Shown here piece after piece: positions 16,554 through 50,860 of a DNA stretch of 64,000 nt. Both the position numbers and the translations under genes were made by a program. Below the pieces are notes generated by a model, which searched no databases, was not told the DNA's origin, and saw nothing but the letters and a program-made list of their open reading frames with translations. The DNA is from Flaccisagitta enflata (taxonomy: Eukaryota), in NCBI GenBank assembly GCA_965153355.1, contig OZ231126.1, positions 35,898,001 to 35,962,000 of the forward strand. The letters are read 5' to 3'. Positions within the stretch are counted from its first letter, which is position 1; every line of letters begins with the position of its first letter.

Positions 16554-16654
<101 letters not shown>

Positions 16655-16906: not shown

Positions 16907-17001
<95 letters not shown>

Positions 17002-26096: not shown

Positions 26097-27254
26097 CTGG
26101 ATAGCCCCCCAAAGAAAAACCAAAAAACCCATTCTGGGGACCCCAAGAACTATCATCTAAGATGTCTTGGCTACACAGAACAACATCAGACTAAATCATT
26201 TGAAGGCAAAATTTTGGAAAAAGTCACTTTTTATACAAAAATCAAGCATTTTTTGCCAAATTTTGCACTTTCATGGTTCATACAGCTTCCAAAACTTTAG
26301 AAAATATTTAGAAAGTGTAAGATTAGCTAATGTGTAACTAGTTTTACCTTTTCAAGTTAGTTTGGATGGATATTTCAAAGATTAGAGCAAAAAAAATCAC
26401 TTAAAACCAGAAAATCAAATTTTTTTCAGCATTCTTTTGGCTAAAATCATTCAAGCTACATCAATAAGCCTGTAAACTATAAAAAATGTGTGGTAACAGT
26501 TGAAATTTATATGGTTTTACCATTTTAAGTAAGTTTGAAGAAATACTTAACTCTCAAAAGCTAAAAAAATGACTTTAAAAACAATAAATTTAAGTTTTTT
26601 TTAGTATTTTCATGCTGAAATGTTATCAATCCTTAAAAACTATTTCATGCAAGTAAAGTATATATATTATATACAGAAAGTACATAAACATATATCTCAC
26701 TATTACATATATTCTTATATATATGTCAATATTCTATATTTTTGATTATATTTGAAATCAGATTAAATCTTCAAAATATTGAAAAAATCTTATTTCATTA
26801 GTTTTTTTTTGGCTTTTGAGAGTTAAATATTTCTTCAAACTAACTTAAAATGGTAAAACCATATGTATTTCAACTGTTCCCACACACTTTTTATAGTTTA
26901 CAGGCTTACTGATATAGCTTGAATGATTTCTGGCAAAAAAATGCTGAAAAAAGTTCCATTTTTTGGTTTAAAATGATTTTTTTTTGCTCTAATCTTTGAA
27001 ACATCCATCTAAACTAACTTGAAAAGGTAAAACCAGTTACACATTAGCCATCTTACACTTTTTAGATATTTTCTACAGTTTTGAAAGCAGTATGAACCGT
27101 GAAAGTGCCAAATATAGCAAAAAATGCTTGATTTTTGCATAAAAAGTGACTTTTTCCCAAATTTTGCCTTCAAATGATTTATTCTGATATTGTTTTGTGT
27201 GAGCAAGACATTCTATGATAGTTCTTTAATGGCTGGTTTTTAAGGGCTATCAGG
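26097..27254. mobile_element. Foldback element with ~500-bp arms, apparently inside a HINE (~25995-27520)
   Basis: AAATCATTTGAAGGCAAAATT...AAAGTCACTTTT (~26194) is inverted at 27140-27180, and symmetry continues inward. Confidence 0.75.
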
Positions 27255-27321
27255 AAGATGCGTCTTTTCATTCCTGCGACAGAGCTTTTTATCGCGCATA
27301 GGTAAGACAATAAGACACGAT

Positions 27322-27394
<73 letters not shown>

Positions 27395-30043: not shown

Positions 30044-30661
30044 CACTGCCCTCTCATAGCAAGATCAGGTGAAAAGTAACATTACTGTAGGTTTTTTCAT
30101 TGTTTTGTATAGAATCTGAGCTCTATTTACTGGAACTAATGAAGATAAAATCTTGTCAAGAGCGCTTTTGGAGATTTTCATAAAAATTGGTGGTTTTAAG
30201 CCTTCTTTTTCCTGTAGATTCAACTGGGTATTTCAGAAATACTTTTTGTCAGCAAATTTGTATTCCTGGTGAAATTTCCATTCATTTGATAGGTCGCAAC
30301 ATATACTTTTACATAGAAATAAGATTTTCAGTTTTTAAGCCACCGTTGCAAAATTGTAACGGTGGCTTAAAAATGGGAAATTGCATTTTTGGATAAAATT
30401 ATATAGTGCGACCTATCAAATGAATGGAAATTTCACCAGGAATTCAAATATGCTGTCAAAAAAGATTTTCAAAATACCCAGTAGAATCTACATTGAAAAA
30501 AAGGGTACAAACCATCAATTTTTATGAAAATCTCAAAAAGCGCTCTTGACAAGATTTTATCTTTATTTGTTCCAGTAAATAGAGCTCAGATTCTATACAA
30601 AACAATGAAAAAACCTACAGTAATGTTGCTTTTCTCCGGACCTTGCTGTGAGAGGGTAGTG
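30044..30661. mobile_element. Palindromic MITE with CAC termini and 4-bp TSD CAAA (Chapaev/CMC-like)
   Basis: CACTGCCCTCTC...GAGAGGGTAGTG; almost fully palindromic about ~30352. Confidence 0.8.
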
Positions 30662-30846
30662 CAAAGCTTATTAACTTTCCTCATGAAAAAGGGATATCCA
30701 AAAACCTCTGCAGGACTCAAAAAGACCAAAGGAACTTTGACAATAGAACAGCCGTAATTGTTGACCATAGTCATGTCAGATGCTGCTATATTAGTTTTCT
30801 TTTTGACATTTCAGCTGCATAGCGGATATTGCAGTTGCTCCCACTG

Positions 30847-31881
30847 CACGGCGTCCAGGAACAAACCATAGGTCGAAAAAAATGATCAAGACTCCTGATC
30901 TAGGAAAAAGTTTTTTTTTATGCATTAGCTATTAATTTATGGCAAAAATAAAAAAATCGGCTTGGAAATATAGAATTCAAAGCTTAAAGATAGCAAAAAT
31001 AAAGCATTTTTATATATTTTTAGTCGCGTGCATGCAACTCCACCTTGGTCTGTCGGTCAGTCCTTCCGTCCGTCACAAATATTTTTGAATTTTTGATCGC
31101 CTTAATGTTTTTTAACATGTTTTAACATTTTTTAACATTTCTCAACATTTTAAAGATTTTTTTATATTTCTTAACATTCTTTAACATTTTTAACATTTTT
31201 TAACTTTTTTTAAAAATTTACCTTTTTTAACATTTCTGATTTTTTTAAACACTTTTTAACATGTTTTAACATTTTTTAACATTCTTTTACATTTTTTAAC
31301 ATTTTTTAAACATTTTTTAACATTCTTAACATTTCAACATGTATTTGTAATTTCCAGACGCACGCAACTGTTGCCCTCTTGGGCTTGTTTATTAGGATTG
31401 TTTATTAGGCTTGTTTATTAGGATTGTAGCTTTAAGCTGTTTGAAAAAATATCTGAAAAGTGTGGCAATAGTTGCTGTAATAATGCTTTTACCTATTTGG
31501 TAAATTTAGAGGGTTATTTTATAAATAAGAATTAAAAAGATTATTTCAAACTATCAAATTGATTTTTTTTCAGCCTATTTTCGTAATTACTTCTTTAAAA
31601 TTCTTGAAGACTATGAAAAGTGTATAAATATTGTTGAGATACACAAAGCCAAACTTTTCATACATTTCTACATACTTTTAGAAGCCATGAATAAAATTTT
31701 TAATCTAAAATATGCTTAAAAATGCCTTTTTTGGTTACTATTTGACCATCTATTCTATATTTCTTAGCAGACTTTTTTATTTTTACCATTAATTTGTAGC
31801 TAATGCATCAAAAAAGACATTTCCCCAAGTCAGGAGTCTTGACCATTTTTTTAGACCTAGGGTTTGTTCCTGGACGTTGTG
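30847..31881. mobile_element. MITE with CAC termini and 4-bp TSD ACTG; interrupts a transposase exon and contains a HINE (31019-31390)
   Basis: CACGGCGTCCAGGAACAAACC...GGTTTGTTCCTGGACGTTGTG. Confidence 0.8.
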
Positions 31882-32240
31882 ACTGTTGATGTAGTTTTTG
31901 GTGCAGTTGTTCCCGGTGTTACGATGATGCCACTGCTGTTACTGCTTCCGTTGCCTTTTCCACTGCTTTTTTTTGCAATTACCGATGTCGCAGATCATAC
32001 CAAGTGCCAATGTTCCAAAGTTTCACAGTTACATGGAGTCAAATTTGCAGGAATGATGTTGATGCAGCCGTTATTGCCGTTGTCACTAGAAATAGAAAGA
32101 ATAAAAAGTATTCTGTTTGGCAGTTTACCAGTAATGGCGGCTGTTGCTGTGAGGAAAAAAGTTGTAAGCATTGGCCACTTTTAACTAAGCTTCTGTATCA
32201 AGTCACTGCAATCTTTTTTGTCAATTAAAAGCAACATGTA

Positions 32241-32837
32241 CAGTGGGGTTCATGGAATAACAGCCTAAACTGGAGTATTTAAGTGTCTTAATTTCATTTG
32301 ACAGACTTGATATTTGAAATATAAATTGTTCCATTGATGCTTGTCTCCTTGAGTTTTTTGGTTGCTATAGAAACCAAAATTATTTTTTCGAACAGTCATA
32401 ACTACTAAAATATAAATGTTTTCACACATGTATTGAGGGAACATTGCTAAAAATTGAATTTACAACAACTTTCCCACAATATGTTCTGTAAGAATATTGC
32501 TCGTTTGGCCGTTGCTAGGGAGCATCACACATAGCAACCAGCAAATGATGCTCCCTAGCAACAGCTAAACAAGCAATATTCTTACAGAACATACTGTGGG
32601 AAAGTTGTAGCAAATTTAATTTTGAGCAATATTGCCTGATCATATCTGTCAAAATATTGATATTCTAGCAGTTATAATTACTAAAAAAAATAATTTCGGT
32701 TTCTCTAGCAACCAAAAAACTCAGGGACACAAGCATCAATTGATCAATATACATTTTAAATATCAAGTTAGTCAAATGAAATGAAAAGACTTAAATACCT
32801 TCCTCCAGTTTAGGCTGTTATTCCATGAACCCCACTG
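32241..32837. mobile_element. Palindromic TA-TSD MITE
   Basis: TA|CAGTGGGGTTCATGGAATAACAGCCTAAACTGGAG...CTCCAGTTTAGGCTGTTATTCCATGAACCCCACTG|TA. Confidence 0.9.
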
Positions 32838-34993
32838 TATTGATTGCAATGAAAATCTGAGAAAATTAGGATTTGCCAAATGAGCTACATTACATTCCCA
32901 GCAAACCCAACTAAATCTGGGGGATGAATTTGTGTTAACTTGAATTATTCCCTTAGCTTAATCTTTAGTATTCAAACTAGTTAAAAGGACACTTACTTCT
33001 TTGAACATATTTGGTTACAAAAAAAAAATCATTCAAAGTAACTGAAATCAAAGTTAATGAAGACATCATTTTAGAGTGTTCTAGACAAATGTCCCAAAAA
33101 ACTTTAAATGACTAATATCTGTAAACATTGTCAGATTACGCTGATTTTTTTCCCGAGGATATGAAAAATTTTTCTGCTGAATCCAATAGTCTCGGTTAGA
33201 ATGCTCTAGAATGTGGCCTTCATAGACTTTGATTTTAAAATGACTTGAAATACAAAACGGACTTAAATGAATCAAGTGACATAAATGACTGAGAATGACT
33301 AAAAATGATGTAAAATGATTTCAAATGACTAAGAAAGACTTAAAATGACAAAGCGACTTGAAATGACAAATTTCCATATAATATCTTTTATTTGTCATGA
33401 GCGACAGAGCACACGCCAACATACATAGCTATAAACTACTACATGAAGAGATAGATGAAAAAAAAAGTTAGTTAGAAGGTCGCTTTGATGACACAATCTG
33501 AACAGTAATTGGGTCCGCGAGGGGGGGGGGGTAAAAGACCTGTTCTATAAAATCGATACGACCAAAAGATCACAAACCCTACAAAAGGTATATAAAATTA
33601 TAAATCAGGTGCATATGTGGAGACTTTCAATTTTGAGTCTATTCCAAGTTTCAAGCAAATTGGTTGAAAAATGGCAAAGTTATCCCAGTTTTTATTTCGG
33701 GCTGATAAACTGGTTGGGTGGTAGGCTGGTTGGATGGTAGGCTGGTTTGACAAAATCAATAGTGTGCATATGTTGAGTTCTTCCATTTAGAGATTATACC
33801 AAGTATCAACCAAATTGGTAGAAAAATGACAAAGTTAAACAAGTTTTCCACTTTTGGGCTGGTAGGCTGGTTGGGTGGTAGGCTGGTTTGGCCAGTTAGC
33901 ATGCTCAAACGCATATAAATCATATACATATGTTAAATTATTCCATTTAGAAACTCCATAACAAATTTCAACCAAATCAGTTGAAAAATTCCAAAGATAT
34001 GCACGTTTTTCACTTTTAGGCTGAAAGGCTGGTTGGGTGGTAGGGTGGTAGGATGGTTTGACAGGATACATAGTAGGCATCTGTTGAGTTCTTCCATTTA
34101 GAGACTTCATACCAAGTTTCAACCAAATTGGTTGAAAAATGTCAAAGTTATGCAAGTCTTTCACTTTTAAACCGGTCGGCTGGTTGGGTGGTAGGTCGGT
34201 TTGGCCAGTTAGCATGCTTAAATGCATATAAATTACATACATATGTTGAGTCCTTCCATTTAGAGACTCCCTACCAAATTTCAACCAAATTGGTTCAAAA
34301 ATGGCAGAGTTATGCATGTTATTCACTTTTAGGCTGGTAGGCTGGTTTGGCCGGTTGGGGTGGTCGGCTCACAAAACTCGGATAGGATATTAAGCGCCTT
34401 ACCTTTGTTCATCTTCCCTCCTAATATGAAGCAAATTGGTCAAAGCACAAAAAAGTTATCCATTTTTTAAAATCTGTTACGACAACAACGACAACGACCA
34501 GCGGCGTATCTGAGCCAAGACTATAGCAGCTGCCGCCTTCAATCTATGTCCCAACATAGTTCCTGTCCGACCTATGCATAACTATCTGTTACTATCAATA
34601 ACTGTACATGACTATCTATCACTATACATTACTATTAGATACTATATATGACTGAATATAAGACTACTTCTTTTTACATCAGTGTGTGACCACTAAGTAC
34701 AACTGTTTATAACTTTAAAAAAGTGTAATTGAGTAGTAGTAGAGTCTTTGCTAGTCATCAAGTAAACAATAAGTTCAAGATGTGATGCTACATACACGTA
34801 TCAAAATTCTTTGAAAAGCAATGAAAAAATTCAATTTTTCGTGTTTGTCTTGCCATCATACAATCATTTCTCAAATCACTCATAATAACTGGATTCTTGA
34901 CAAAGACTAGGTGTAAATCTGAAATGGTTTGTTTTTGTGCTGTTTTTGATCATTTGATGTTCTGTTTCTTTCGCTCAGACACTTGGTTGTGAG

Positions 34994-35025
<32 letters not shown>

Positions 35026-35430
35026 CTTTTTTTTCTTCTTCTCTCTTTTCTTGGCTATCCTGCTGTCCGACAATATTCCTGTCCGACATTTTACAGCTGC
35101 CGCGGCAGCGGCGGAAGCCCCTTCATATACGCCGCTGACAACGACACCCACCCGACTCGAATTAAAGTCCGCATCAGAATGATATTCCGTCGCAGACAAA
35201 AATGACAAATTGACTCATGACTTAAAATGACTTAGAATGACTTAAACTAACTTAGAATAACTTAAATGATTTCAAATGACAAGGAAACGCTAAGCATTAC
35301 CTTCAGACCAACCAACCGATCAACCGACGGACAGTGCGGGTCAGTCATGTGCATGTGACTAAAAAGTAACAAACCATTAGGGGGTTGGATGGATTGACCA
35401 GAGGAATATCGGCCAGACAAAGAGACCTAT

Positions 35431-35957
35431 CAGTCAACGGACAAAACACAATAGGTATATATATCACTCCGTTGGTTTTGATCCAACCCACTGATGTTGA
35501 ACAAAATGCTGTTAACAACAACTGGTTGTTGAAATTACAGCCGGCTGTAAAGTTACAAAGTTGGCAAAAATCCAATTTTCACCAAATAGAATGAGACCTG
35601 CAGATTCATAATCCTGATCAAATTCTGAGAAGTTTGATATGTCACAACATATACTTTTATCTGAAAATAAAATTTTTTATCAATGTTTAATTCAATTATA
35701 ATACAATGTTAAAAAAAATATTTTTCATAAAAAGTGTTAAGTGTGACATATCAAACTTCTCAGAATTTCATCAGAATTATGAATCTGCAGGTCTCATTCT
35801 AATTGGTGAAAGTTGGATTTTTGCCAACTTTGTAACTTAACAGCCGGCTGTAATTTCAACAACCAGTTGTTGATTACAGCATTCTGTTCAATATCAGCGG
35901 GTTGGATCAAAACCAACTGAGTGATATATATACTTATTGTGTTTTGTCCGCTGACTG
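35431..35957. mobile_element. Palindromic MITE with CAGTC termini and 4-bp TSD CTAT; interrupts a transposase exon
   Basis: CAGTCAACGGACAAAACACAATA...TATTGTGTTTTGTCCGCTGACTG; second copy at 55277-55804. Confidence 0.9.
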
Positions 35958-36199
35958 CTATGATGCCGCTTTGCACGCTAGTAAAAATTGAAAATATGGA
36001 GATATGTACAGTAAAGAAGAAGACCATGGCTCTGTCTGTTGGCGAATGGAACGAAAAAATAAAACATGAGTTTGTCGATTAATCATCAAAATCAAAAGCC
36101 CATGAGCGTCATAGCTGTACACCGCTGGAATTTTTCTGCTATATGGCAGCTTTTCAGAATTGGCACCCTGGCTAGAGAGCCTGTTGGTTGGTCGGTCCA

Positions 36200-36550
36200 A
36201 ATGGCGTGGTTGAACGGCGTTATGGCATTGTGAAATGCCGTTGTGAAATGGCGTTGTTAAATGGCGTTGTCAAATGGCGTTGTCAAACGGCGTTGTCAAA
36301 CGACGTTGTCAAACGGCGTTGTCAAACGACGTTGTCAAACGGCATTGTCAAACGGCATTGTCAAACGGCATTGTCAAACGGCATTGTCAAACGGCGTTGT
36401 CAAACGGCATTGTCAAACGGCATTGTCAAACGGCATTGTCAAATGGCGTGGTTGAACGGCGTTACGGCTTTGTGAAATGCCGTTGTGAAATGCCGTTGTC
36501 AAACGGCGTTGTCAAAAGGCGTTGTCAAAAGGCGTTGTCAAAAGGCGTTC
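36200..36550. repeat. 13-bp tandem repeat (AAACGGCGTTGTC)n
   Basis: Read directly; explains the ORFs at 36188-36582. Confidence 0.9.
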
Positions 36551-37705
36551 ACAGTCTGAATAGTTACAACCAAATCAATTGAAAAATACCTAAGTTTTGC
36601 TAATTTTTTACTTTTAGATAGTAGGCTGGTTAGGTGGTAGGCCAGTTTGGCCATTTAGCATGCTAAAAGCTTTATGAATGACAAACATATGTTGAGTCCT
36701 TCCATTTAAAGATTTCATATAAAGTTTCAAGCAAATTGGTTGAAAAATGCCAAAGTTATGCATGTTTTTCACTCTTAGGCTGGTAAGCTGGTTGGGTGGT
36801 AGGCCGCTTTGGTCGGTTAGCATGCTAAAACCTTTATAAATCAAATTCATATGTTGAGTCCTTCCATTAAGAGACAACATACCAAGTTTCAACCAAATCA
36901 ATTGAAAAATGCCAAAGTTATGCTCATTTTTCACTTTTAGGCTAGTAGGCTAGTAGGCTGGTTGGGCCGGCTGGGATTGTTCGATCTTAATATAGATATA
37001 GGCTGCAGAGCGGCTTACCCTAGTTTAACTTCCCTCCAAATATGAAGCAAATTGGTCAAGGCGTTCAAAAGTTAGCCCATTTGTGGACGATGAAAACAAC
37101 ATCGACACCCATCCGCCTAAAATTATAGTCCGCGTCAGAATGGTATTCCTTCGCGGACAAAAAAAAAAGACTACCTTTTGATATTTTTTTGCAAGGATTC
37201 AGAATCTGCCATCAGATTTTCAAATTTCCTATTTTGAAATTTTGACCTGAGATATGCTGCTGCAGCGTCCCAAACCTTGATCAGAGAAAAATTTTGATGG
37301 ACTGAACTGATCCCCCACCCGTTAATTAGTCTAGTGATCGGTAGATGAATTATATCACACTTTCTACATATTTCTGGACCCTGTTAGTGTGAGTGTGACT
37401 ACTTTCTGTAGTACAGCGTCAGTTGGTTGGTTGATCTGTCTGTCCATCCAAAATAGTTTTAGGATATAAACTTCTTCATAGTGTTCTAGCCTTTAAATGC
37501 ATTGAAAGGCTGGTAGATCTATGTGAAATACGGTTGTACATAAGCTTCCCAGTAATGTTGTACTCCCTGCCCAACTGTCCGTAACTTTTGACCTGTTTCG
37601 GGCTTATCACTGCCCCTGCTCAACCACATGCGACTTGAGTAGCCATGAATCTGGCCTAGTTAACATGATGAAACTTTTAATACTTTCACGGCTAATTGGA
37701 TATGA

Positions 37706-38106
37706 AGGTCAAATATCCTGGCGCTCCTGAAAGTTATTGTGGCTGCATTCCTTCATACTTTGGAGACTCAAGGAGAAGCATTGCTTGAGGGTGGACATTG
37801 GTTCGATCGGCGAGAAGACACCAGTCTCCGGGAAAAAACTACAAGTGTTCCCATCACCAATCAAAGGGGCGAGGGCGACTTTGGTGCCTTACGGCAAAAA
37901 ATTGACACTCAACCATCCGCTAGTCCAGCTACACTCGAAACACAATTAATGCTGAAGTACAACCGACCAGTGAGCAAATTTTTAATGAAGAAGACAGATG
38001 CTGAAAAGAAAAACATTTGGAAGATTGCCCGCGGTTCTTATCCTGAAAGAAAAGAGGAAGAGAAAAAGGAAAAAGAAGAGTTTTTTGACGGCCTTACTTC
38101 TCATAG
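37706..38106 (+). CDS. Stop-free transposase exon containing the candidate catalytic E (PITNQRGEGDFG)
   Basis: Lies in ORF 37739-38179, whose frame is open from 37706. The PxTNxxxExxFGxL motif resembles the hAT-type ERxF segment. A candidate phase-2 donor sits at CAT AG|gtcatt (38106/38107). Confidence 0.65.
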
Positions 38107-38209
38107 GTCATTGATCAAATATAGCAGAAGTAGCGAGGGCAATTTGAAAACGGAAATTTACAAATTGAGCCTCAATTAGATACAAGTTTAAAGAAATCCC
38201 CATTCTTAG

Positions 38210-38798
38210 TGACTGCATAAGCGGGTACATTTTATGAGGAAGAATTGATGTTGACCCTAAAATAATTTCCCTTGAGAGATGAAGCAAAAGTCACAAAATT
38301 GTTTCAAATTTTTCAAATATTTGATATTCAAGATTCATACTTCTGGTAAAATTTCCAATCATTTGATAGGTCGCACTATATATTTTTAAGAAAAACAAGG
38401 CCAGATACACAGCTACCCCAGTCGCGTGCGGGTGGGCAGGGGCTGTATTTTAGGTTGCCTAATCATTTGGGCAGGAGCAGTGAGGCCAAACACCGCGAAA
38501 AAAACAAAAAAGTAAAGTGTGACAGACGGATGGACAGACGGACGGATGGACCGACAAAGCGGGTTGTAGAGTTGCATAGCACGCGACTCAAAATTTCATT
38601 TTCTATGCCACCATGATTGGAAATTTCACTAGGAATATATATTGAATCAGAATTTCAAAACAAAAATCCATAAGTTGTTAGATCAAACAAATTTGAAAAT
38701 ATTTGAGTGATTTTTTTGCAAATAATTTTCATAAGACATATTTTTTACAAGGTAAGCATCAATTTTCTACTTTGAAATATACCTACTTGTGAAAGTCA
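38210..38798. mobile_element. Degenerate foldback MITE with a nested HINE (38393-38592)
   Basis: GTGACTGCATAAGCGGGTA is inverted to TACCTACTTGTGAAAGTCAC. It shares the GATAGGTCGCA core with 30044-30661 and 51430-52277. Confidence 0.6.
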
Positions 38799-39329
38799 CA
38801 ACCATTTGAAATTTTTTTGAACTTGTATCCGATTTGGGCCCACTGAAAACTAGGTAGTTGCAAATACAGTAAAAATCCAGATTTCAAGGGCCCAACAAGC
38901 CTTTCTGTCTCCAGCAGAATTCTATTATTACCAAAACAGGAAACACCCGACAACCCAGTAACTTCCAATGTCTGTCACACATTCTCATGACACTCTCTTG
39001 ATAAGCGTAAACGATTGAACACTACTGATGGTCGAAGGCGGAATGAAATTTAAGTTAGGGTGGAAAATGTGGCAGCGGCAGCTTTTGCCTCATTTTCCAT
39101 GCTATAAGGCAACTTAGCAAGATCAGCACCTCTGCATATAACCCAGAATTTACAAATATCACATAACCCAGAATTCGCCAAATGTCACAAAACCCAGAAT
39201 TCACCAAATACCTGACACACAACCTGAATCTCTCTGAATGTCTGTTGCACAACACAGAATACTCCTCTAATCTGTCGCAGAGCCAAAAATCTGAACAGTA
39301 TCTGGGTCTGAGACAGAGGGGGGTTGAAG

Positions 39330-40178
39330 ATCACCAATTCCATGAGATCGCTATGACCAAAAGATAGTTAACCCCGTAAGTTCGCTAAAACTATAAGTCT
39401 TTACATTCAAACCGACATACAAAACTTCATGCAAATCCTTTCAAATAAAAAATGACAAAGGTATGCACGTCTTTCACTTTTGGGCTAGAAGGGTGGTTGG
39501 GTGGTAGGCTGGTTTGGATAAATAGTGTGCGTATGTTGAGTTCTTCCATTTAGAGACTCCATTCCAAGATTTAACCAATTTGGTCAAAAAATGTCCAATT
39601 TATGTAAGTTTTTCACTTTTAGGCCAGTAAGCTGGTTGGGTGGTAGGTCGGTTTTGCTGGTTGGCATGCTCAATGTAAATAAATCACATACATGTGTTGA
39701 GTCCTTCCATATAGAGACTATACCAAATTTCAACTAAATTGGTTGAAAAATGACAAAGTTATGCAAGTTTTTCACTTTTAGGCCGATGGCTAGTTGGGTG
39801 GTAGGTCGGTTTGGCCGGTTAACATGCTCAAATGCATATAAATCACATACATATGTTGAGTCCTTCCATTTAGAGACTCCATACCAAATTTCAACCAAAT
39901 CGGTTCAAAAATGCCAAAGTTATGCACGTTTTTCACTTTTAGGCCGGTGGGCTGGTTGGGCCGGTTGGGTTGGTTGGATCATAAAAATCGGATAAGATGT
40001 AAAGCGCCTTACCCTAGTACAACTTCCCACCAAATATGAACCAAATCGGTCAAAGTAGAAAAAAGTTATCCATATTTTAAAACCCGTAACAATGACAATG
40101 ACAACGACAACGACAACGACACTCACCCGCCTTGAATTATAGTCCGCGTCGGAATGATTATCCATTGCGGACAAAAAT
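39330..40178 (-). mobile_element. HINE-like family D carrying ~160-bp tandem units (other copies at ~33400-35200 and ~36570-37165)
   Basis: Repeated unit AAATTTCAACCAAATTGGTTGAAAAATG...GGCTGGTTGGGTGGTAGG...CTTCCATTTAGAGAC; shared terminal hairpin GTCCGC...GC(G/A)GACAAAAA. Confidence 0.7.
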
Positions 40179-40660
40179 TCTCTGAATGTCACACAACCTA
40201 GAATTCTCCATACGAGAACTGCAAATTAACGAGCTGTGGTTAGGAGGGCAGCGGTTATGAGGGCAGCATGTGTAAGGGTAACAATTGTAAGGGCTTCGGT
40301 TATGAGAGCTGCGGTTATATGTGTGCAGTAAAGTTAGTCCACCACTATTGATCACTTATCGTTCAACCTTGAGGATACGACGCATGCAAATCAGTTCGTC
40401 AATCAATTTGTGGTCAGCCTCCATTTGTCAGCCTCCATTCGTCAGCCTCCATTCGTCGATCGATTTACGGTCAGCCTCCGATTGCTTTCGATTTGTCTCC
40501 AACTCACGTCTCCAACCCGTGATTTGAGCTGTTTCAAGACAAAGGGAGAGTTTCCTGTGTCATATTCGGCAAGTTGATATTACCAAGTTGAAATTGTCTT
40601 TGCATTTTTTTGTCCCAAACACTCATTCCTTTCCAACTTGCAAACAGCTTGACGAAGATA

Positions 40661-42131
40661 CAGTAGATCTCGTCTAGACTTGAGATAGGGGAGGCAAGCA
40701 TTATGGAATAGCATAACAAGAGTTCATGCAAAGTCATAGGAAAGTTCTCTATCAAAGGAATATGACTCAAAATCATGTACACAGATAACCCAAAACAAAA
40801 AATTGGTCCTGGGACCTCTAGAAAATACCGCCGCCACCCCCCTCATATCCCATAGAAAATGTACAGGAAATATTTTTTTGCCTATATTTTATTATGGGAA
40901 AGGGGGCAGGTGGCGGCGCCAATTTATAGGGGTTCCAGGGCTAAATTTTTTTCATGGACCACCTGTAAACATGATTTTGGGCCATATCCCTCTGATAGAG
41001 AACTTTTCTATGACATTGCATTTTTTGTTGTTAAGCTATTATGGAAAGATAAAAATTAAAGGAACGATATTTGGATAAAAGATTAATAAGAGGATACTTC
41101 AATCCTTATAATAGCTGGTTGCCATAGATATACATTTCTTCGCTAAAGTATCAATATTTAGAGAGATTTTTTAAGGGAACATTGCCTAATATCAAATTAA
41201 CTATAATTGTCATACAATAAATTCTGTAAGATTGTCGCTCAAATAGCAGTTGCTAGGGAGCATAACAGGGTTGTTACATATGGATACGCTCTACAGCAAC
41301 AACTAAACAAGCAATATATTTACAGAACATACAATAATAAGCTTGCATTAAATTTTATTCTAAGCATTGTTCCTTGAAAAATCTCTCAAAACATTTATAT
41401 TTTAGTGAGAATATATGAAAGTGTGTTTACATAAAAAACAATCATCATGGGCAATAAATCATTCTTTTATTAATTTATACAGTAGATATCATCTAGACTT
41501 GGAAATATGGGGGAATTCATTACAGGAAAACAAATTAACTTAAGAGACTGATATTTGAAATATAAACTAATGAAAGGATGCTCAATTGCTTATGGGTGTT
41601 GTTTGTCATGGAAACACTTTCATGTATTCGCGCTAAAGTATCAATATTTCAAGAAATTTTTTGAAGGAATATTGTTTAAAATAAAATTTGTAATAATTTC
41701 TTACAATATGTTCTCTAAGATTATCGCTCATTTGGCGGTTGCTAGGGAGCATCACAGGGCTGTCACACATAGTTACACTCCCTAGCAACAGCTAAACAAG
41801 CAATATTCTTACAAAACATTTTGTGGGAATGTCATAGCAAAATTTTTTTTAAAAATTGTTCCTTTAAAAAATTTCTCAAAACATTGATATTTTAGCGTGA
41901 ATACATCAAAAATGTATGTCCATAGCAACCAATACCCATGGGCAATAAAGCATCTTTTTATTAGTCTATATTCCAAGTATAAGTTTCTTAGGTATATTTG
42001 TCTTCCTGTAATGAAATCCCCTGTATTTCTAAGTCTAGACGAAATCTACTGTATTTCAAATATCAGTCTTTTAGCAGTATTTCTCTTCTCATACTTGCCC
42101 CCGTCATCTCAAGTCTAGACAAGATCTACCG
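40661..42131. mobile_element. TA-TSD MITE (CAGTAGAT termini) with a related element nested at 41480-42051
   Basis: Outer: TA|CAGTAGATCTCGTCTAGACTTGAGA...TCTCAAGTCTAGACAAGATCTACCG|TA. Inner: TA|CAGTAGATATCATCTAGAC...GTCTAGACGAAATCTACTG|TA. A remnant lies at ~18260-18370. Confidence 0.8.
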
Positions 42132-42138
42132 TATTCAA

Positions 42139-42773
42139 TAGCTTGTACCTAAATGACTAAAAGCAATAAAATCAGAATTCTACAAGTAGTTCTTGTTGTG
42201 GGGCTGTCTTGGGCTTCTAATGGCATCAACTTTGGTCTGAAAAATTTGCATCTTGCTGTCCGCGCCTTACCTTGAATTTTCCTTTAGAAACCAAAAATTT
42301 CAAAGTAAATCTCTGTTTTGACTGCAGATTTGAAATCTGCAGCAGAAAATACTGTTAATTGAAAGTGCTTTCCTTTTTTCAATATTCCTTCGGGATCATA
42401 GTCAAAATTCATCTTAAAGATATAAAAAAAGGTAAGTTTGGCGATTTCACATATAAATAAAAGAGAAAGGTAAGTTTTGCAAACTTTGACACTTATTTTG
42501 AGCACCTTCTAGTTGGAATATTGAAAAAAGGAAAGCACTTTCAATTAACAGTTTTTTCTGTAGATTTCAAATCTGCAATCAAAACAGAGATTTAAGGACT
42601 TTGAAATTTTTGGTTTCCCATAAGCTGAAGGAAAATTCAAGGTAAGGCGCGGACAGCAAGATGCAATTTTTTCAGACCAAAAGTGATGTCATTGGAAGCC
42701 CAAGACAGCCCCACAATAAGAACTACTTGTGGTGTTCTGATTTTATTGTTTATTGTCATTTCGGTACAAGCTA
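42139..42773. mobile_element. Palindromic hAT-type MITE with 8-bp TSD GTATTCAA
   Basis: TAGCTTGTACC...GGTACAAGCTA; TSD at 42131-42138 and 42774-42781. Confidence 0.85.
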
Positions 42774-43136
42774 GTATTCAAACTGAACAAATACATCTAT
42801 GAAGACAATGCAATATTTGAAGCCACGAAATGAAAAATTCATGCTACATGCCCACATCATATACTGAATTACTTCAAATGTCTAAGTTAGAGCTAATACA
42901 ATATTCATAATACACAAAAAACAAGGTCGGACATTGGTAGCGGATGGGTGGGTAGGGGCGGAGATGTGCATTTAAACACTTTCCAACTCAATCATCACAG
43001 ACCAGCTACCTAAAGGACCAACAGACGGACAAAGCTTCTCATAGAGTGCGCGACTAAGAATGAGAATTTAAGAGAATTTATGATAATTTAGATGAAAATC
43101 TTACACTACTTCTGCTAAAAAATGGTCTACCCAAAG

Positions 43137-43821
43137 GCTATCGATTATTGAGGCCCAGAAAGCAAAACGTGTTGCTGATGGCAAAAAAATCAACAGCATC
43201 TGCTCTAGGTTTACTAATGAGTATGGACCGCCGTGGAAAAAGATGGAAATTGCCAAGAAACTCCGCGCCATTCCAGAAAAGAAAAAAATTGATGCTGTTC
43301 ATCTTATGATAGAATATTTAGCAAAAGTTTGCCGAGCAGAGTTGCCCAACAAGGACTGCACAAAAAAATCCAAGGGAAAGCGTACATACAACTTGGAGGA
43401 AAAAATTGTCCACTTACATCAAATATTTGACCACAATCCTCACTTGAACACGAATGATGCCCCAGCGCCGATGGAGATGGACGAAAATCCTCCGGCACGA
43501 GTCCCGCCACGTTCAATTGCTGATAATGCAACATCAATTATTCGTAATATTAAAAAAAAAACCGAGATTGGATTACAGAAGATAGCAGTTCGTCGCTCAA
43601 AGAAACGGTTAGATGCTGTCACTGAAAACCCCGATTCTCTTACTGGTGCCGCGTTCAAACGAAAGATGGTCTCCAGTCCAGAGGCAGTTTGGAAGAAAGG
43701 CACGGTCATGAAACCTGTAAAATCCAAGAAGACGGTTTTATTCAGAGTGAAAATTGGTAACCAAACTACGGAAATAAACCTGCTTAGAGAACTCAAAACA
43801 GGTCACATCATTCTCATGTGA
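43137..43821 (+). CDS. Stop-free terminal exon: helical region plus Spin/Ssty (Spindlin)-like Tudor domain
   Basis: The frame is open from 43096 to the stop at 43819-43821. A phase-2 acceptor ccaaag|G joins the previous exon as ...SHR|LSIIEAQ. The C-terminus SLTGAAFKRKM...WKKGTVMK...LFRVKIG...INLLRELKTGHIILM* resembles the remembered Spin/Ssty pattern LVGK...WxGxV...YxIxY...LLxDYxxGDLxI. Confidence 0.6.
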
Positions 43822-44853
43822 TTGAGTACACCTTTTTTTTATAAGAACATCGTTTTTTGAGCAAGCCTTCAATGTTCCTAAATTTTAACACTTTCAAGGT
43901 TTGAATGTTCTTAAATTGTTCTTAATTAAAACGCACTCCTTAACCTTCAATTAAAAACGTTCTTAAGTAGTTTTAAGTTTGTTGTTAAAGAGAAAATGAA
44001 GAAAAATGTTAATAGAACAACAAAGTAGCAGATTTAAACGTTTTGAATAAATTAAGATCAATGAAAATAAAAAAATATTTGCTATATAAAGAAAGAAATG
44101 ATTGGCTGAACAGAAAAGATATAGAGTCTATCATTTACAAAGAACAATTGATTAAAAAAAAGCCCAGAAACAAAATGTTCTTAGATTTTGAACATTTTAA
44201 GCCTAGTGTTTTTAAATTTTCAAAGGAATGAAGCCTTCCAATGTTCTTAGCATGTTCTTATATTTTTGACAATTTGAAGCCTAACGTTCTTATAAACTTG
44301 GTTCTTATAAAAAAAAGTGTATCTAGCTGCGGACTTAACTGTTATGCTTAAGGTAAAATGTTATGCTTAAGTTAAAAAGTGTAAACTCGAATTTTGCCCC
44401 TTCCCCCCCCCCCCCATCTGCTATCATGTTTAGAGGTGCTCTGAGGGATGATATGTCCAATCGTCAAGTCCAGTCCTTCAGTCTTTTTTTACTCTTTTCA
44501 GTTTAATGTATTTGATAAATTCAATCTGCTCTCTGTTACCCAGCGTTACTGTCTTTTTCACAAAAGATTTGATAGCTTTCTCTGCTGTGACCACACGGCA
44601 AAATACAATAATCATTCATAAAAGCGCTCACAATCTTTCAGTAGGACTTGGTAGGTACTAGGTTGGTAGGACTGTTAGTATTTTACGCGTCATTTCAAAA
44701 GAGGCCCAAATTCTAGCCTTGAAATTCCAATTCTTAAAGTAATTCAGGTCTTGATAAGGCCGGATACAAGAAAAGACAGCCAAAGACGGTTGGGCAGGGG
44801 CAGTAATGTAAAAACCGTTAAACAGACGACTGCAGAAAATATGCACACAACAT

Positions 44854-45370
44854 TTGGGTGCTTCACATAGCAAAAGTTTTTTATTTCTTCTTGCCCTCTT
44901 TACCTAATGTGGAGTGGCTAATTTTAGGACCCTTACCATTTTTCTTTTATCAAAAATCGTTCATCTTCCGTTTTCTAGAAAATTGTTTTCTGAGGGCCTA
45001 ATTTGCATAATGCAGTGGGATAAAACAATATGCTGATATTGTTTGAATTAGCTTTTGCAAATTTCTTTTTTTTTAAAGAATTACACTTCTGCCCTTTCAT
45101 AAGCTTTTTCATAGCCTATGTTCTAAGATTTTAGTTTATTTTTACAAGCATCATGATTTTTTAAAACAAATAATTGTTCTTTTTGTAACAAAACCACACA
45201 GGATTTTGCTGAATTCGGGGAAATCTGTGGAAACTTTAAGGCCAAAACAAAAACAGAAGATGAAGGAATTTTGAAAAAAGAAAAATGGTCATCTTCATGA
45301 TTTTTCTACCTCCACATTACATAAATAGGGTGAAGGGATACTCCCAACTTTTGCTATGCGAAGCACGCAA
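44854..45370. mobile_element. MULE-like MITE with 9-bp TSD ACACAACAT (second copy at 47317-48000, TSD ATCCCACAT/C)
   Basis: TT(G/T)(G/A)GTGCTTCAC...AGCAAAAGTT is inverted at the other end in both copies. Confidence 0.8.
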
Positions 45371-48300
45371 ACACAACATAGGTCACAGTGCAAATGAAGG
45401 CAAAATTAGACAACCATAAACATTCATGACCTACTGAGCTGAACCTCAAAGATTGTAACAAATCAAAGCAGGCTTTGTTTTTTTACTTACATTATCCTCA
45501 TACAAAATGCTTAAAAGTAAAAAACTAAGAAACTTGATATTGCATTGATGAAAAACAGAATTCCTTGAAAATACAGTTGCAAGAATTTATAAAAGCAGTC
45601 AGGAGAAATTCTAAGATTGTCTTCAGCTTCAAATTTTGGCATTTTTAAAAACAAAGCCCTATTTTCTTGTGTGTTAAGAACAAGGCTATGTTTATGGAAA
45701 TGCAAATCTATCAAATTGAAGGCTGGCTTAGAATTTCACCTAAGACAACTCATATTTCAAAATCAAATTTTCTTTATTAATCCACAATTTTTACATCATT
45801 TATCTTTATTCTTTTACATTTAAGTGAGATATAAATTATCTCTCAAGCAAAAATATCATTAACAGAAATAAATAAACCTATTTTTAGTTTTAAAAATCAT
45901 CATTCTAGGAAATTAAGAATTATCAAATAAATGTGTTGACTCATTAAATTTTGTCCAAATTCTATTTGTGACATAAATTGCGTAGGACTAGTCAAGTCAT
46001 GGCATAAAAAGGGTTGTGTGTCTCTTACTAAGAATAACATATCCACAATCAATGCAATAATGACAAAGAGTTACAGTTCAAAACTTTTGTTAAATCGACA
46101 TTCTACCTTGACAATGACATCAAGTGGTTGGGTGTGTCAATACGAAGAAGTCAGTAAAAGTATTTTTGATCAATTCATTGATATAAAAAAAACAAGGCAA
46201 GATACACGGCTATTTCAGTGATGTGCGGGTGAGCAGGAGCAGTGCTCGAGGACATCACTAGAACATTTGGGCAGGAGCAGTAGGCTCAAAAAGCTCAAAA
46301 ACTCAAAAACGCCAAAAAAAGAAAAAAAAAAAACAGACCAACAAACTGACCGACATAGTGAGGTGTAAAGTCGCGTAGCACGCAAAAAAATACATAAACT
46401 TTTTATTTTCTTTTAATTTCAGAAAGCTCAAAAACGCCAAAAAAATAAAAAGGGGACCAACCAAGCAACCGACCGACCAACTGGCCAACCAACCGACGGA
46501 CCAACATAGCAGGGTGTAGAGTCGCGTAGCACGCGACTACAAAAGTCAAACTTTACATTTTAAAATTCTGATTTTGCCATGTTTTTTTAGTTGCGGACAA
46601 GCAACTCTATTAGAGGCTTTGTCCATCCATCCGTCTGTTGGTCCGTCGGTCCGTCTGTTGGTCTGTCGGTCCGTCTGTCCAAGGTCATCGAGTTGAAATG
46701 TTAGAAAACGAGCATTTTTGATACTTTTTGTGTATGTTTGGATGTTTGGGGTAGGTTTGGGTGTGGATGGGGGTTGGATGCCCCTGCCCACCCGTCCGCA
46801 ATGATATTGTGACCCCGCGTCACTTGTTTATTCAATTTTCAATCACATCATTTTGTATATTATCGCTGATAAGAATTCATTAAAAATCCTTTTTATTTTC
46901 TACTTCATAAAAAAAAAATAAAGAAAACACACAAAAAAAAACTAGAAAAATATAAGATTGGGGTATCTGCTAGGACACCAAAAAAGTATATAATGAAAAA
47001 TATAAAGTAATAAAACAAGGCCAATATACAGCTACCGAAGTCGCGTGCGGGTGGGCAGAGGCCATATTTGAGGTCACCAGACCATTTTGGCAGGAGCAGG
47101 GAAGTCGAAGTAATAAAATCATAAAAAAAAGTAAAGTGTGACCGACCGACCAACTGACCAACCGACCAACCGACGGACAAAACGGGTTGTAGAGTCGCAT
47201 GCAAGCGACTAAAAACATTTAATATTTCATATGGTTTAATATTTAATAGTCCCATCAAAAAACCATTTGCATATTGACACACCCAAATTGTTATCAGCAT
47301 CTTATCTATCCCACATTTTAGTGCTTCACAAAGCAAAAGTTTGGAGTATACCTTCACCCTATTTAAATAATATAGAGGAATGAAAATCATGAAAATGACT
47401 GTTTTTCCTTTTTTTTAAATTCCTTCATCTTCCATTTCTATTTTAGCCTTAAAATTGCCACAGAAATTCCAGAAATCCGCAAAATCCCAATTAGTTTTAA
47501 AAGGACAAATCTTGGTAATATTGAAAATTGAGTAAAATGTTAGAATGTAAACTGTAAAAGAGCTCACTTAAAAAGCAGATTACCAACTCTATAAAAAGAA
47601 AGAATTAATAATGGCTAATTCAAAGATTATCAGCTTATTATTTCATCCCACAACTTAGTCTTCAAAATGAAATTGCTAAAAAGCAGAAAATGAATGATTT
47701 TTAATAAAAGAACAAGGCCAACATCTAGAAGTCGCGTGCGAGACTTACATTTAAAATGACTTAGAATGATGTAGAATGACTTAGTATACTCTTATATGAC
47801 CTAAAATGACCTGAAGAAAAAAAATTGACTAAAAAAGTAAAGTGTGACCGACCGACCAACCGACCAACCGACCGACAAACAAAGCGAGGTGTAGTCGCGT
47901 GCACACGACTAAAAATTGTAAAGCTCTTAAAATTGACCATCCCCTATTAATTAAAGAGGGTGAAAAGAAATAACCAACTTTTGCCATGTGAAGCACCCAT
48001 ATCCCACACTCAGCTTCTGAAGAATCCAACCCACAGCCTTTCAATATTGTCCTCTCCCCCCTTTAGCCCCCTTAAGCTCAACCTTCACTTCCTTATACTC
48101 TCATCCCCACCTCCCCCTCAGCCTCTCTTCCATCTCACAATTCACAAATGCTCAAACACATTCCTCCCTCCGCATCACACCTTCTTTGCTCTACCCCACA
48201 CATTCCTCCATTTCCTTCTTACCCATATCCCTCATCCTCTCACCCATATCCCTCATCCTCTCACCCTTACCCCTTTAACTTTTTGCTGGACAGCCCCCCT

Positions 48301-48784
48301 TCAGCTTCTCACCCAGCCCCCTTGCGCTTCTTATCTTAGCTTACCCAGCCCCTTCCCTCGAAAGCTTCTCACCCCCTTCATCCTTTCACCATACCTAAAT
48401 TAGGCCTTTCCCCCCCCCCTCCCCCAGCCTCTCTCGACGTACAATTTTCTCTACCCACCTTGATCACTTACCTTTACTTTCAAAAGATGTTACTTCTCAC
48501 GCAAAAGTCAACAAACAGCGACGGCGTGGTCCTTTTCCAACTGTGACAGAGGTTGAGCCAAGCAGCTAGACTGAGCAGATTAAATCGTCTGGCAGATAAT
48601 CACGGAACTGTTGGATGGTAGTGCGCGACCAACTTGAAAATGCGCTTAAATTAGCAAGTTTTTGTTAACAACATTTTTACATAAGCTGGCTTAGGTGTAG
48701 GAGCCAGCCGGACATGCGTAAGCACATATCTTAGGATTTTTTCATGCGATACTGCCCCAACATAGAAGTCAGTAGCTAACTCGG

Positions 48785-49205
48785 ACCCTACACCCTTAAA
48801 CCTTACCCCACACCTACCCCTAAACCCACACCTACCCCTAAACCTATCCTTAACCCTAAACTCAACGGCCAACCCTACACTTAAAACCCAACCCTACACT
48901 TAAAACCCAACCCTACCTATTAACCCAACCCTACCTATTAACCCAACCATCCATAAATCTACCCCTACCCCTAAACTCAATCCTACCCCTAAACTCAACC
49001 CTACCCCTAAACTCAACCCTACCCCTAAACTTAACCCTACCCCTAAACTCAACCCTACCCCTAAACTCAACCCTACCCCTTAACTCAACCCTACCCCTTA
49101 ACTCAACCCTACCCCTTAACTCAACCCCACCCCTAAACTCAACCCTACCCCTAAACTCAACCCTACCCCTCAACCCGACCCTAGCCCGAAACCCAACCCT
49201 ACCTT
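48785..49205 (-). repeat. The same ~18-bp repeat on the opposite strand (AACCCTACCCCTAAACTC)n
   Basis: About 20 units; source of the spurious RGRVEF-repeat ORF 48931-49311. Confidence 0.9.
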
Positions 49206-49540
49206 TAGATACGACCCTATGTTCTAACTGTACCCCCACCCAATGTTCTACCTCATTGAAACCAGCGATAAAAGTAAGGTTGGACAACTGCAATGTAAGT
49301 CCACGAGGCACGACCAGCCGTCTCCTACACGTTGACCCGTTTGGTCAATCGTCCAGAGTCTCCAAAAGTCAGCGGAGCGTAGCGAGTGACACGCTTTCAG
49401 AAGATGCAACTTTTTTTTCCTTTTTTTTTCCTGTAAATTATTTACCCCCCTACGAAAACTTCCGAGAATAATAATCAGCTGGCTGATTAATGATTCGCTC
49501 AATGTAGGTTGATCTCGATTCCCATTGGTCATCGGTGGCA

Positions 49541-49607
<67 letters not shown>

Positions 49608-50317
49608 GCACACACACACACACACACACAATCATAATGAGACAGAGACAATGAGTGAGAGTGTGCACGAGTGGTGGCGCCAACTCATGGATAGAATGAG
49701 GTAGCCTGAGGACAGAGAAAACAAAAAGTAGGGGATAATACAACTTACTGCCGTAGATGGCGTCCCCACTTTGTCGGAGATGCGACCAGATATCCCCTTT
49801 GTTTATGAAATATTCAATCCAAAGTTAAAAATTATCAAAAGCTCACTGTAAACCAAACTACAATCTAACCTGATCTTAAAAGTACGGAAAATCCTATAGA
49901 ATCTAGAATATTTACATGAAACGTCGATGGTTGAAGTTATATGCATAACTCCTATTTCTCATTCCCCACTCCCTTGCTTCGAAAACAGCTCTGTATTTAC
50001 CACCTCTAGCGTAAAAGCAAAAATGAAACTGATGAGCTAGCTTTTTCAGTACCGAGTACGGTAAGCCCGTTTTTTAATCAAGAACCATGAACAAAGATAT
50101 TCATCCGCGCTGGCCGCCGAATCCCTAGAAATTGAGCTTTAGATGGTCCCAACATTTCCAGCAGAATAGGTGACAATTTTGGCGATTACTTTTGAATGGA
50201 TGAATGGATTTGAATTTTTTTTTCTGCATTGGACTATTGCTACAGAACCGCTTCGGTATTAATAGTCAATGAAAATGAAAGTATTCGGGATAAGATTCAG
50301 CCGGCCTACCCACTTAA

Positions 50318-50860
50318 AGTAGTTGAGATAATTGATTTCCGTAAAAAGTTCCTGAAAGGTATGGTGGATGCATTTTATGATGTGTAACTCCCAGGATTTT
50401 TTTACGAAAATCTGAACCTCTTGACACAAGGAGAAATATCAATCAAAAATAAAAAAAACAAACATTATTTTCGGTTTTTGGCTGAACAATTTTGTTTGAG
50501 TTGATCTTATTTCCGGATGAATTGAGCTACAGATACCAGATTGGTCTCAAATCAAAGCTAATTTACAGTGGTTTTAAGAAATACAATGAGGAAAACTTTT
50601 TTTAATAGTACGTAACATTACCTGCATCGTCACGTCACATTAGGTGTTAAGAAAATCTATTTTTCACTCAAACTTTTTATCAAGAGTTGATTCATTGTTC
50701 ACACAATTGTCAAAAATATCACATGAGCCTTTCAACTGAAGTTTTCCCAAAAACTACTACAAAAAACCTTCCATCTGAGACCAATCTGGTGTCAGTATTT
50801 CAAACTGCATCTACCATACCTTTCAAGAACTTTTTACGGAAATCAATTATCTCAACTACA
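50318..50860. mobile_element. TTAA-TSD MITE (Kolobok-like AG terminus) at the inner edge of the right TIR
   Basis: TTAA|AGTAGTTGAGATAATTGATTTCCGTAAAAAGTTC...GAACTTTTTACGGAAATCAATTATCTCAACTACA|TTAA. Confidence 0.8.

What the first reader, a model, noticed from the sequence alone, without database searches (positions are those of the whole stretch)
43633..43821. Spindlin/Spin-Ssty-like Tudor domain at the transposase C-terminus
Seen: the last ~62 aa (DSLTGAAFKRKMVSSPEAVWKKGTVMKPVKSKKTVLFRVKIGNQTTEINLLRELKTGHIILM*). Established: Spindlin Tudor-like repeats read methylated histone H3 (e.g. H3K4me3). Inference, by eye: the segment follows the Spin/Ssty pattern, so the transposase may carry a chromatin reader that biases insertion. 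Several aromatic positions look substituted, so binding may be lost or altered.
Basis: inference. Interest (0 to 1): 0.75.

Follow-up and report, generated by a model that had tools for sequence, protein, structure and literature searches.

The report
Transposase with worn Spindlin-like domain
This is the tail end of a broken copy of a large jumping gene whose cutting enzyme ends in a domain related to Spindlin, a reader of methyl marks on histones; in this lineage the domain is kept but has lost its reading pocket and turned positively charged, so it more likely grips DNA or nucleosomes than reads histone marks.

Summary
The 62-aa segment is there, and it is a Spindlin-type Tudor domain. A 20-sequence family profile hits only Spindlins in the PDB (E 3e-11, best on Tudor 2; next hit 0.18). 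AlphaFold gives a confident barrel whose top Foldseek and VIA matches are Spindlins. It is the last exon of a DDE transposase in a 28.3-kb element (22013-50312) with a 7-bp target-site duplication. The splice that joins it is gap-free against four paralogues without that intron. A sister copy splices to an open 1365-aa frame. The window copy has lost 10 kb with two of three catalytic residues, so it is dead; no RNA covered its exons in 4 runs. Net charge is +9, against -2 to -13 in 14 of those 15. The domain is still under purifying selection (dN/dS about 0.13). Best reading: an ancestral reader module turned into a basic DNA/nucleosome-binding one. I did not find the fusion in print; this scan noted it four times on other genomes.

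The parts
22006..22012 (.). Left target-site duplication (7 bp, CTTAAAG)
   Evidence: same 7-mer at 50313-50319; the two sister copies also have 7-bp duplications (one exact, one with 1 mismatch)
22013..50312 (+). Whole DNA transposon copy, 28.3 kb, full of nested repeats; 5' end TAGGGATGCT, 3' end (reverse complement) TGGGTAGGCC, 6 of 10 bases alike
   Evidence: collinear with the 38.5-kb copy on G000:C9 at 91-99% per block, both ending at the same bases; a 4.2-kb derivative on C3 shares both ends
36199..36224 (.). Junction of a 10.2-kb internal deletion relative to the C9 copy; it removed the first four transposase exons (start codon, coiled coil, D, D, CxxH, most of the helical insertion)
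37708..38106 (+). Second-last transposase exon; carries the putative catalytic Glu (NQRGEGDF motif, Glu codon 37871-37873)
   Evidence: Glu invariant in the family consensus; catalytic role inferred from motif order
38107..43136 (+). GT-AG intron, 5030 bp, filled with nested repeats; present only in this subfamily
   Evidence: in-frame, gap-free junction against four paralogues in which this stretch is one open frame; splicing not seen in RNA
43137..43821 (+). Last transposase exon: helical region, flexible linker, long helix, Tudor domain, stop codon
43633..43818 (+). Single Spindlin-type (Spin/Ssty, Tudor-2-like) domain, 62 aa, net charge +9. Cage equivalents: F141=Met (43666), W151=Trp (43690), Y170=Ile (43753), Y177=Thr (43768); D184=Glu (43789), D189=His (43804)
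   Evidence: Spindlin-1 numbering from PMC7878818 and the 7e9m match at 131-193
50313..50319 (.). Right target-site duplication (7 bp, CTTAAAG)

Best explanation
The segment is a true Spindlin-type Tudor domain, a standing C-terminal part of a family of hAT-like DDE transposases (shown). Outside relatives have an acidic domain with 3 of 4 cage aromatics (shown), so the family's ancestral domain probably bound a methylated histone tail and tethered the transpososome to chromatin (inferred). In the lineage of this genome the cage was lost once, yet the domain was kept under purifying selection (shown). In the window's sub-branch it became strongly basic (shown). It most likely now works as a non-specific DNA- or nucleosome-surface-binding module that helps capture target DNA, not as a methyl-lysine reader (inferred). 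The window copy itself is a non-autonomous deletion derivative (shown), which the intact-looking C9 copy could move in trans (inferred).
For: Homology and fold: first 22 listed Foldseek rows are Spindlins, TM-score 0.71-0.77 over the query; Spindlin-4 Z 8.5, rmsd 2.7, 65 aligned. Fusion: one open frame holds catalytic Glu and domain in 4 of 4 other own-genome subfamilies; 15 of 23 relatives of P0007 end in the whole domain; the C9 copy splices to 1365 aa without stops over five GT-AG introns. Cage: 1 of 4 in 5 of 5 own subfamilies, 3 of 4 in 13 of 15 outside relatives, 2 of 4 in the other two. The five own subfamilies form one branch, 100/100. Charge: +9, +9, +8 in window, C3 and C2a, against -2 to -13 in 14 of 15 outside relatives. 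In 12 of 12 outside relatives checked the domain is acidic while the region upstream is mostly basic. Selection: C3 vs C2a, both cage-less, dN 0.28 and dS 2.15 in the domain, against dN 0.79 and dS 1.72 in the linker. In Spindlin-1, F141A alone costs about 40-fold affinity (PMC7878818).
Against: No binding data of any kind. DNA binding rests on charge alone, and the C-terminal region of the window clade is basic throughout (+7 and +11 in the two upstream stretches), so the charge may partly reflect composition. Two own subfamilies (C2b, C1b) lost the cage without becoming clearly basic (+3, +1). Cage loss is one event, so the cage-charge correlation (rho -0.75) is not independent evidence. No outside relative has all four cage aromatics, so the ancestral reader role is itself unproven. 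dS is near saturation. Foldseek E-values are only about 0.01, and the plant RDM15 Tudor (Z 7.8) is tied with Spindlin-4 in VIA. The tree root is only a midpoint, so the direction (loss rather than gain of the cage) is inferred from Spindlin having it.
Confidence: 0.5

Rival explanations
1. The domain is kept for a protein-protein or structural job (oligomer contact in the transpososome, or docking a host factor), as Spindlin-1 Tudor 3 docks C11orf84 by strand pairing. The cage and the charge are incidental.
For: Hydrophobic core positions, the Pro-x-x-Leu start, Trp, Gly and the Leu-Leu helix are the conserved columns, not the cage. Selection persists without the cage. Charge varies from +1 to +9 among cage-less copies. 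Tudor 3 precedent in PMC7878818, section 7.
Against: Outside relatives keep 3 of 4 cage aromatics and both acidic H3-contact positions (D184, D189 equivalents acidic in 14 of 15), which a purely structural role would not need.
Confidence: 0.27
2. One reading: the domain still reads a histone mark (perhaps a lower methyl state or unmodified tail) through a remodelled pocket and biases insertion.
For: Closest to Spindlin Tudor 2, the H3K4me3-binding repeat. The W151 equivalent is invariant, and the D184 equivalent is acidic in 20 of 20.
Against: The window domain has only three aromatic residues in all, two at core positions. There is none in the loop that carries Y170 and Y177, whatever the register. 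D189 is His. Net charge +9 would repel a basic histone tail.
Confidence: 0.15
3. The domain is a decayed relic in this lineage, or the Spindlin likeness is convergence among small SH3-like barrels.
For: The single sequence has no Pfam or PDB hit. The domain evolves about twice as fast as the catalytic exon (dN 0.28 vs 0.145). Many unrelated barrels score Z 5-7. The window copy is dead.
Against: dN/dS about 0.13 between cage-less subfamilies; open to the same stop region in 6 of 6 own-genome copies. The sequence profile, without structure, picks only Spindlins with a gap of over six orders of magnitude in E.
Confidence: 0.08

Closest known systems
Spindlin-1 to -4 (Spin/Ssty repeats, Pfam PF02513), Tudor 2 (PDB 4H75, 4MZG, 7E9M, 4UY4)
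   Same: Sequence profile and fold; strand order plus C-terminal short helix and last strand; W151 and an acid at D184 kept.
   Different: One repeat, not three; fused to a transposase; F141, Y170 and Y177 replaced by Met, Ile, Thr; D189 by His; basic. No PF02513 hit for the window sequence, weak hits (best E 0.01) in 2 of 20 family members.
hAT superfamily of cut-and-paste transposons, groups with non-8-bp duplications (hAT5, hAT6, fungal hAT7: PMC12730594, passages seen; hATw with 7 bp: recalled, not found in any call)
   Same: D...D...CxxH...long helical insertion...E motif order in the C9 copy (use of CxxH as a hAT/P/MULE mark is recalled); short imperfect ends; target-site duplication.
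   Different: 7-bp rather than the usual 8-bp duplication; ends only 6 of 10 alike; 28-38 kb with five introns; no Pfam transposase hit and no sequence hit to a solved transposase; C-terminal Spindlin-type domain.
Transposons carrying chromatin readers: chromodomain Gypsy elements (MAGGY), hAT-chromo fusions in a sponge, PHD fusions in cnidarians (bioRxiv 10.1101/2021.11.30.470311, section 10 read), Tudor-bearing Gypsy-10_Ec32 (PMC12477816, one passage seen)
   Same: A Royal-family reader fold at the C-terminus of the integrating enzyme.
   Different: DNA transposon with a Spindlin-type Tudor ('spin' 0 times in the main text of the bioRxiv survey; 'spindlin' 0 in the Ectocarpus paper); in this lineage the methyl-lysine cage is gone.

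Membership tests
Spindlin Spin/Ssty Tudor repeat | Sequence homology to Spindlin repeats | tested here: met
   Family profile A2 vs PDB: 17 Spindlin sequences at E 2.7e-11 to 8.5e-8, next hit 0.18; window domain belongs to the family by leave-out test, 27.6 bits vs best shuffle 9.9
Spindlin Spin/Ssty Tudor repeat | Pfam PF02513 at its curated cut-off | tested here: not met
   No hit for the window sequence; 2 of 20 members hit weakly, best E 0.01
Spindlin Spin/Ssty Tudor repeat | Tudor-like barrel of four strands, short helix, last strand | tested here: met
   AlphaFold2 pLDDT 86 for the domain alone, about 95 in context; Foldseek TM 0.71-0.77 to Spindlins, E about 0.01; VIA Z 8.5, rmsd 2.7, 65 aligned, tied with RDM15 Tudor Z 7.8
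Spindlin Spin/Ssty Tudor repeat | Aromatic cage F141/W151/Y170/Y177 of Tudor 2 | tested here: not met
   Met/Trp/Ile/Thr, 1 of 4; cage definition from PMC7878818
Spindlin Spin/Ssty Tudor repeat | Acidic H3 N-terminus contacts D184 and D189 | tested here: not met
   Glu at 184 (kept), His at 189 (lost)
Spindlin protein family | Three tandem repeats in a stand-alone protein | tested here: not met
   One repeat at the end of a transposase
Spindlin Spin/Ssty Tudor repeat | Binds methylated histone peptides | not testable with these tools
   needs peptide array or ITC
hAT superfamily | DDE triad with CxxH and a long helical insertion before the Glu | tested here: met
   By motif in the spliced C9 copy: D near 658, D near 738, CKMH at 782, E near 1060 of 1365 aa; conserved in the family consensus. 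The window copy keeps only the Glu. The core was not folded here.
hAT superfamily | 8-bp target-site duplication | tested here: not met
   7 bp at 3 of 3 copies with both ends known. PMC12730594 says hAT groups with 5, 6 and 7 bp exist, so this does not exclude a hAT subgroup.
hAT superfamily | Short terminal inverted repeats | tested here: inconclusive
   Sharp, shared ends, but only 6 of the first 10 bases are alike, and no longer inverted match between the terminal kilobases
hAT superfamily | Detectable similarity to known hAT transposases | tested here: inconclusive
   No Pfam hAT domain in 24 proteins; no transposase among the listed PDB hits (the lists of 35 and 109 are cut at 60 rows and crowded by coiled coils); no Repbase or Dfam at hand

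The most novel reading that the evidence does not exclude
A widespread, apparently undescribed family of animal hAT-like transposases uses a Spindlin-type Tudor domain to choose insertion sites by reading histone methylation, and is the sister or source of vertebrate Spindlins. The lineage in this genome is a natural 'reader-off' variant that swapped mark reading for plain DNA/nucleosome binding, giving a matched pair with which to test what the domain does to target choice. The origin of Spindlin was not tested here.
Probability: 0.2. Interest if true: 0.8.

Novelty: new variant of a known kind. Interest (0 to 1): 0.5.

Why it matters
Reader-guided insertion is established for chromodomain retrotransposons but hardly for cut-and-paste transposases. 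A compact Spindlin-type module on a DDE enzyme would be a natural targeting part and a clue to where Spindlins came from. This locus adds a lineage in which the cage is gone but the domain is still conserved. That argues against assuming that the fusion always reads histones, and it supplies a ready negative control and an intact-looking 1365-aa copy with defined ends for transposition assays. The window copy itself is a dead derivative.

Tried and rejected
Pfam on the window exon and domain: nothing relevant. PF02513 search of the own genome: 0 of 10 candidates, and the control rang nowhere, so it says nothing about whether the host has a Spindlin. ESM Atlas: no usable hit for the exon; only unnamed clusters for P0007. 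Two wider homologue searches added nothing: one search looked only at proteins over 2173 aa, and one search returned 6 proteins already held. RNA: 4 runs laid on 37300-44100 gave no reads in the bins wholly within either exon, only on repeats. Three are marine metatranscriptome contig sets; the fourth, about 6% read, matched only simple repeats and may be another organism. Expression and splicing are therefore unshown, not excluded. Superfamily by sequence against the PDB: no transposase hit. The idea that the last intron is an introner-type insertion (a 12-bp inverted motif lies near both ends) found no support: its two ends occur only in the window and C9 copies. A second gene in the left half of the element: exon-like stretches, no convincing frame or Pfam hit. 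Right ends of 12 related left-end loci were not within the 1.5 kb held, so no further duplications could be read. One search read the F141 column one position off; one search corrects it and is the one quoted for cage counts. Paper searches for the hATw definition failed, and the original Spin/Ssty paper is not held. No complex was predicted: the tool takes no methylated peptide.

Full report
Observation. On its own it matches nothing useful in Pfam, among PDB sequences or in the ESM Atlas.

Gene context. A search of the own genome (794 Mb, 9 contigs) gave 6 matches among 11 candidates: the window, a 98% copy on C9, and four subfamilies at 28-48%. In all four subfamilies the domain lies in the same open frame as the putative catalytic Glu motif. 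In the window that motif sits in an exon at 37708-38106. A GT-AG intron (38107-43136) joins it in frame to the last exon, and the junction aligns without a gap to the four paralogues. The C9 copy splices over five GT-AG introns to 1365 aa without internal stops, with D near 658, D near 738, CxxH at 782, E near 1060 and the domain from 1304 (splice sites chosen by me from homology, not seen in RNA). Outside this genome, phmmer found 7 relatives. The longest (P0007) found 23 proteins among 7999 scored candidates, some named from echinoderms. 15 of the 23 end in the whole domain, 1 in part of it, and 7 stop earlier or end in other sequence. 13 of the 15 were in the profile used, so only 2 are independent tests.

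The element. The window and C9 are collinear from window 22013 to 50312 (91-99% per block) and end at the same bases. A 4.2-kb derivative on C3 shares both ends. All three are flanked by 7-bp duplications, two exact and one with a mismatch. The ends are only 6 of 10 alike. The window copy landed in the arm of a palindromic repeat, whose other arm near 50800-50920 shows the empty site (read by eye). Each copy has gained its own nested repeats since. The window copy lacks C9 bases 13493-23697 of my contig (10.2 kb): the first four exons with the start codon, both Asp and CxxH. It cannot encode an active enzyme; I could not exclude an assembly error at that junction, which abuts a 13-nt tandem array. 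The last two exons differ from C9 at 10 of 356 codons (6 non-synonymous), none in the domain.

Is it Spindlin-like? Yes. A whole-protein profile (22 sequences) hit Spindlin-4 with its last 67 positions (E 1.4e-5) amid coiled-coil noise. A domain-only profile (A2: 5 own-genome and 15 outside sequences; two close relatives of P0018 and the truncated proteins left out) matched 23 PDB sequences at E<=10. The first 17 are Spindlins (2.7e-11 to 8.5e-8), best on Tudor 2 (residues 131-193 of Spindlin-1), and the next hit is at 0.18. Whole-protein E-values gain from Spindlin's repeats; the best single repeat has E about 1e-4. A profile of the 15 outside sequences alone scores the window domain at 27.6 bits against at most 9.9 for shuffles. 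AlphaFold2 gives four strands, a short helix and a last strand (pLDDT 86 alone, about 95 in context). With the domain model the first 22 listed Foldseek rows are Spindlins (TM 0.71-0.77; best E 0.0099, none below 0.001). VIA over 48,161 chains ranks Spindlin-4 first (Z 8.5, rmsd 2.7, 65 aligned), tied within 1 Z with the plant RDM15 Tudor. The models lean on the family alignment.

Does it read histones? In Spindlin-1, H3K4me3 sits in F141, W151, Y170 and Y177. D189 binds the H3 N-terminus, D184 binds H3R2, and F141A costs about 40-fold (PMC7878818, section 7 read). The window has Met, Trp, Ile, Thr, with Glu at 184 and His at 189. All 5 own subfamilies keep 1 of 4 aromatics; 13 of 15 outside relatives keep 3 of 4, two keep 2, none keeps 4. 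The 177 position was placed by offset from the conserved Leu-Leu pair, but the window loop has no aromatic in any register. Net charge is +9, +9, +8, +3, +1 in the own subfamilies, and -2 to -13 in 14 of 15 outside relatives (one is +4). In 12 of 12 outside proteins checked the domain is acidic while the upstream region is mostly basic; in the window clade the whole C-terminus is basic. The own copies form one branch (100/100; midpoint root; long branches flagged), so cage loss is one event. Between the cage-less C3 and C2a subfamilies the domain has dN 0.28 and dS 2.15, the catalytic exon 0.145 and 2.16, the linker 0.79 and 1.72 (NG86, near saturation). The domain is still constrained, at about half the strength of the catalytic exon.

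Expression. Six runs were listed and four laid. There was no coverage in the bins wholly within either exon and no joint at the predicted intron; all signal is on repeats. This neither shows nor excludes expression.

Mechanism. Shown: Spindlin-type domain, standing fusion to a DDE transposase, bounded element, dead window copy, intact-looking sister, cage loss with continued constraint, charge reversal. Inferred: an ancestral methyl-histone tether in the family, and in this sub-branch a basic DNA/nucleosome-binding module for target capture (0.5). Rivals: structural or protein-docking role (0.27), still a reader (0.15), relic or convergence (0.08).

Known systems and print. Reader domains on transposons are known: chromodomain Gypsy elements, hAT-chromo fusions in a sponge and PHD fusions in cnidarians (bioRxiv 10.1101/2021.11.30.470311; passages and section 10 read; 'spin' absent from the main text; its supplements were not seen and may list such fusions). 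A Tudor-bearing Gypsy element was called the first TE with a Tudor domain in 2025 (PMC12477816, one passage). Searches for the fusion found no paper on it: transposase + spin-ssty, 0; transposase + spindlin + tudor, 1 review without 'transposase' in its main text; spindlin + transposon + evolution + invertebrate, 3 unrelated by listing; spindlin + transposase + fused, 0. The library lacks most subscription journals, and Repbase was not searchable. For superfamily, PMC12730594 (passages) states that hAT usually makes 8-bp duplications but has 5-, 6- and 7-bp groups. The hATw label and the CxxH mark are recalled and come from no call; PMC5718144 and PMC12905397 (passages) did not settle them. 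I call the element hAT-like, not a tested member.

Earlier notes of this scan. Four unchecked notes report the same kind of fusion on other genomes, two in sea urchin and one probably in sponge. I had reached the reading before opening them. Two report a Hermes-like or hAT-like fold, which I did not test. None of the lines shown mentions a cage-less, basic lineage.

Verdict. Observation confirmed; interpretation partly supported; a new variant of a known kind; interest 0.5.

Noticed in passing
window 22006-22012, 50313-50319; L028-L042: The 7 bases left of 15 related left ends are AT-rich, with C first in 8 of 15 and G last in 9 of 15 (read by eye; L030 and L031 share a flank). This suggests a loose sequence preference at the target, independent of any chromatin reading.
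   Followed up: partly
window 38107-43136 and L007, L009, L012, L013, L014: Intron positions differ among subfamilies of the element: the last intron is only in the window/C9 subfamily, and C1b has one 587-aa frame where others have one or two introns. This points to intron gain or loss inside a transposon. A 12-bp inverted motif lies near both ends of the last intron (38122 and 43107-43118), but the ends were not found elsewhere.
   Followed up: partly
window 24150-24760, 28150-28460, 30660-30900, 31860-32240, 35955-36200: Non-repetitive, exon-like stretches in the left half of the element, shared with the C9 copy; possibly a second gene or cargo. No convincing frame or Pfam hit.
   Followed up: partly
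L014:114-1394 (G000:C1, downstream of the C1b copy, opposite strand): Exons with C2H2 zinc fingers (Pfam E 1.6e-13) converge on the C1b transposase; not checked whether they lie inside that element.
   Followed up: no
L031 (G000:C5:78017222-78017276): The left end plus the same 25-base flank as the C3 derivative occurs again on C5, cut after about 55 bases: the C3 insertion or its host repeat was itself duplicated.
   Followed up: no
L032-L042 and further rows: At least 18 further loci carry a 68-81% alike left end, a related family whose right ends lie more than 1.5 kb away or differ.
   Followed up: partly
window 36172-36575; L007:2550-4034: A 13-nt tandem array borders the deletion junction; it is about 1.5 kb in the C9 copy and 0.4 kb in the window.
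   Followed up: no
P0001, P0008, P0009: About 98% identical last-exon proteins occur on three 0.9-1.3-kb ENA contigs; P0008 has a different last 14 residues, which cuts the domain's final helix.
   Followed up: no
window 30044-30661, 32275-32798, 35428-35960, 42139-42773, 43828-44323: Many palindromic MITE-like repeats are nested in the element; several are present in only one of the two long copies, so both have aged in place.
   Followed up: partly
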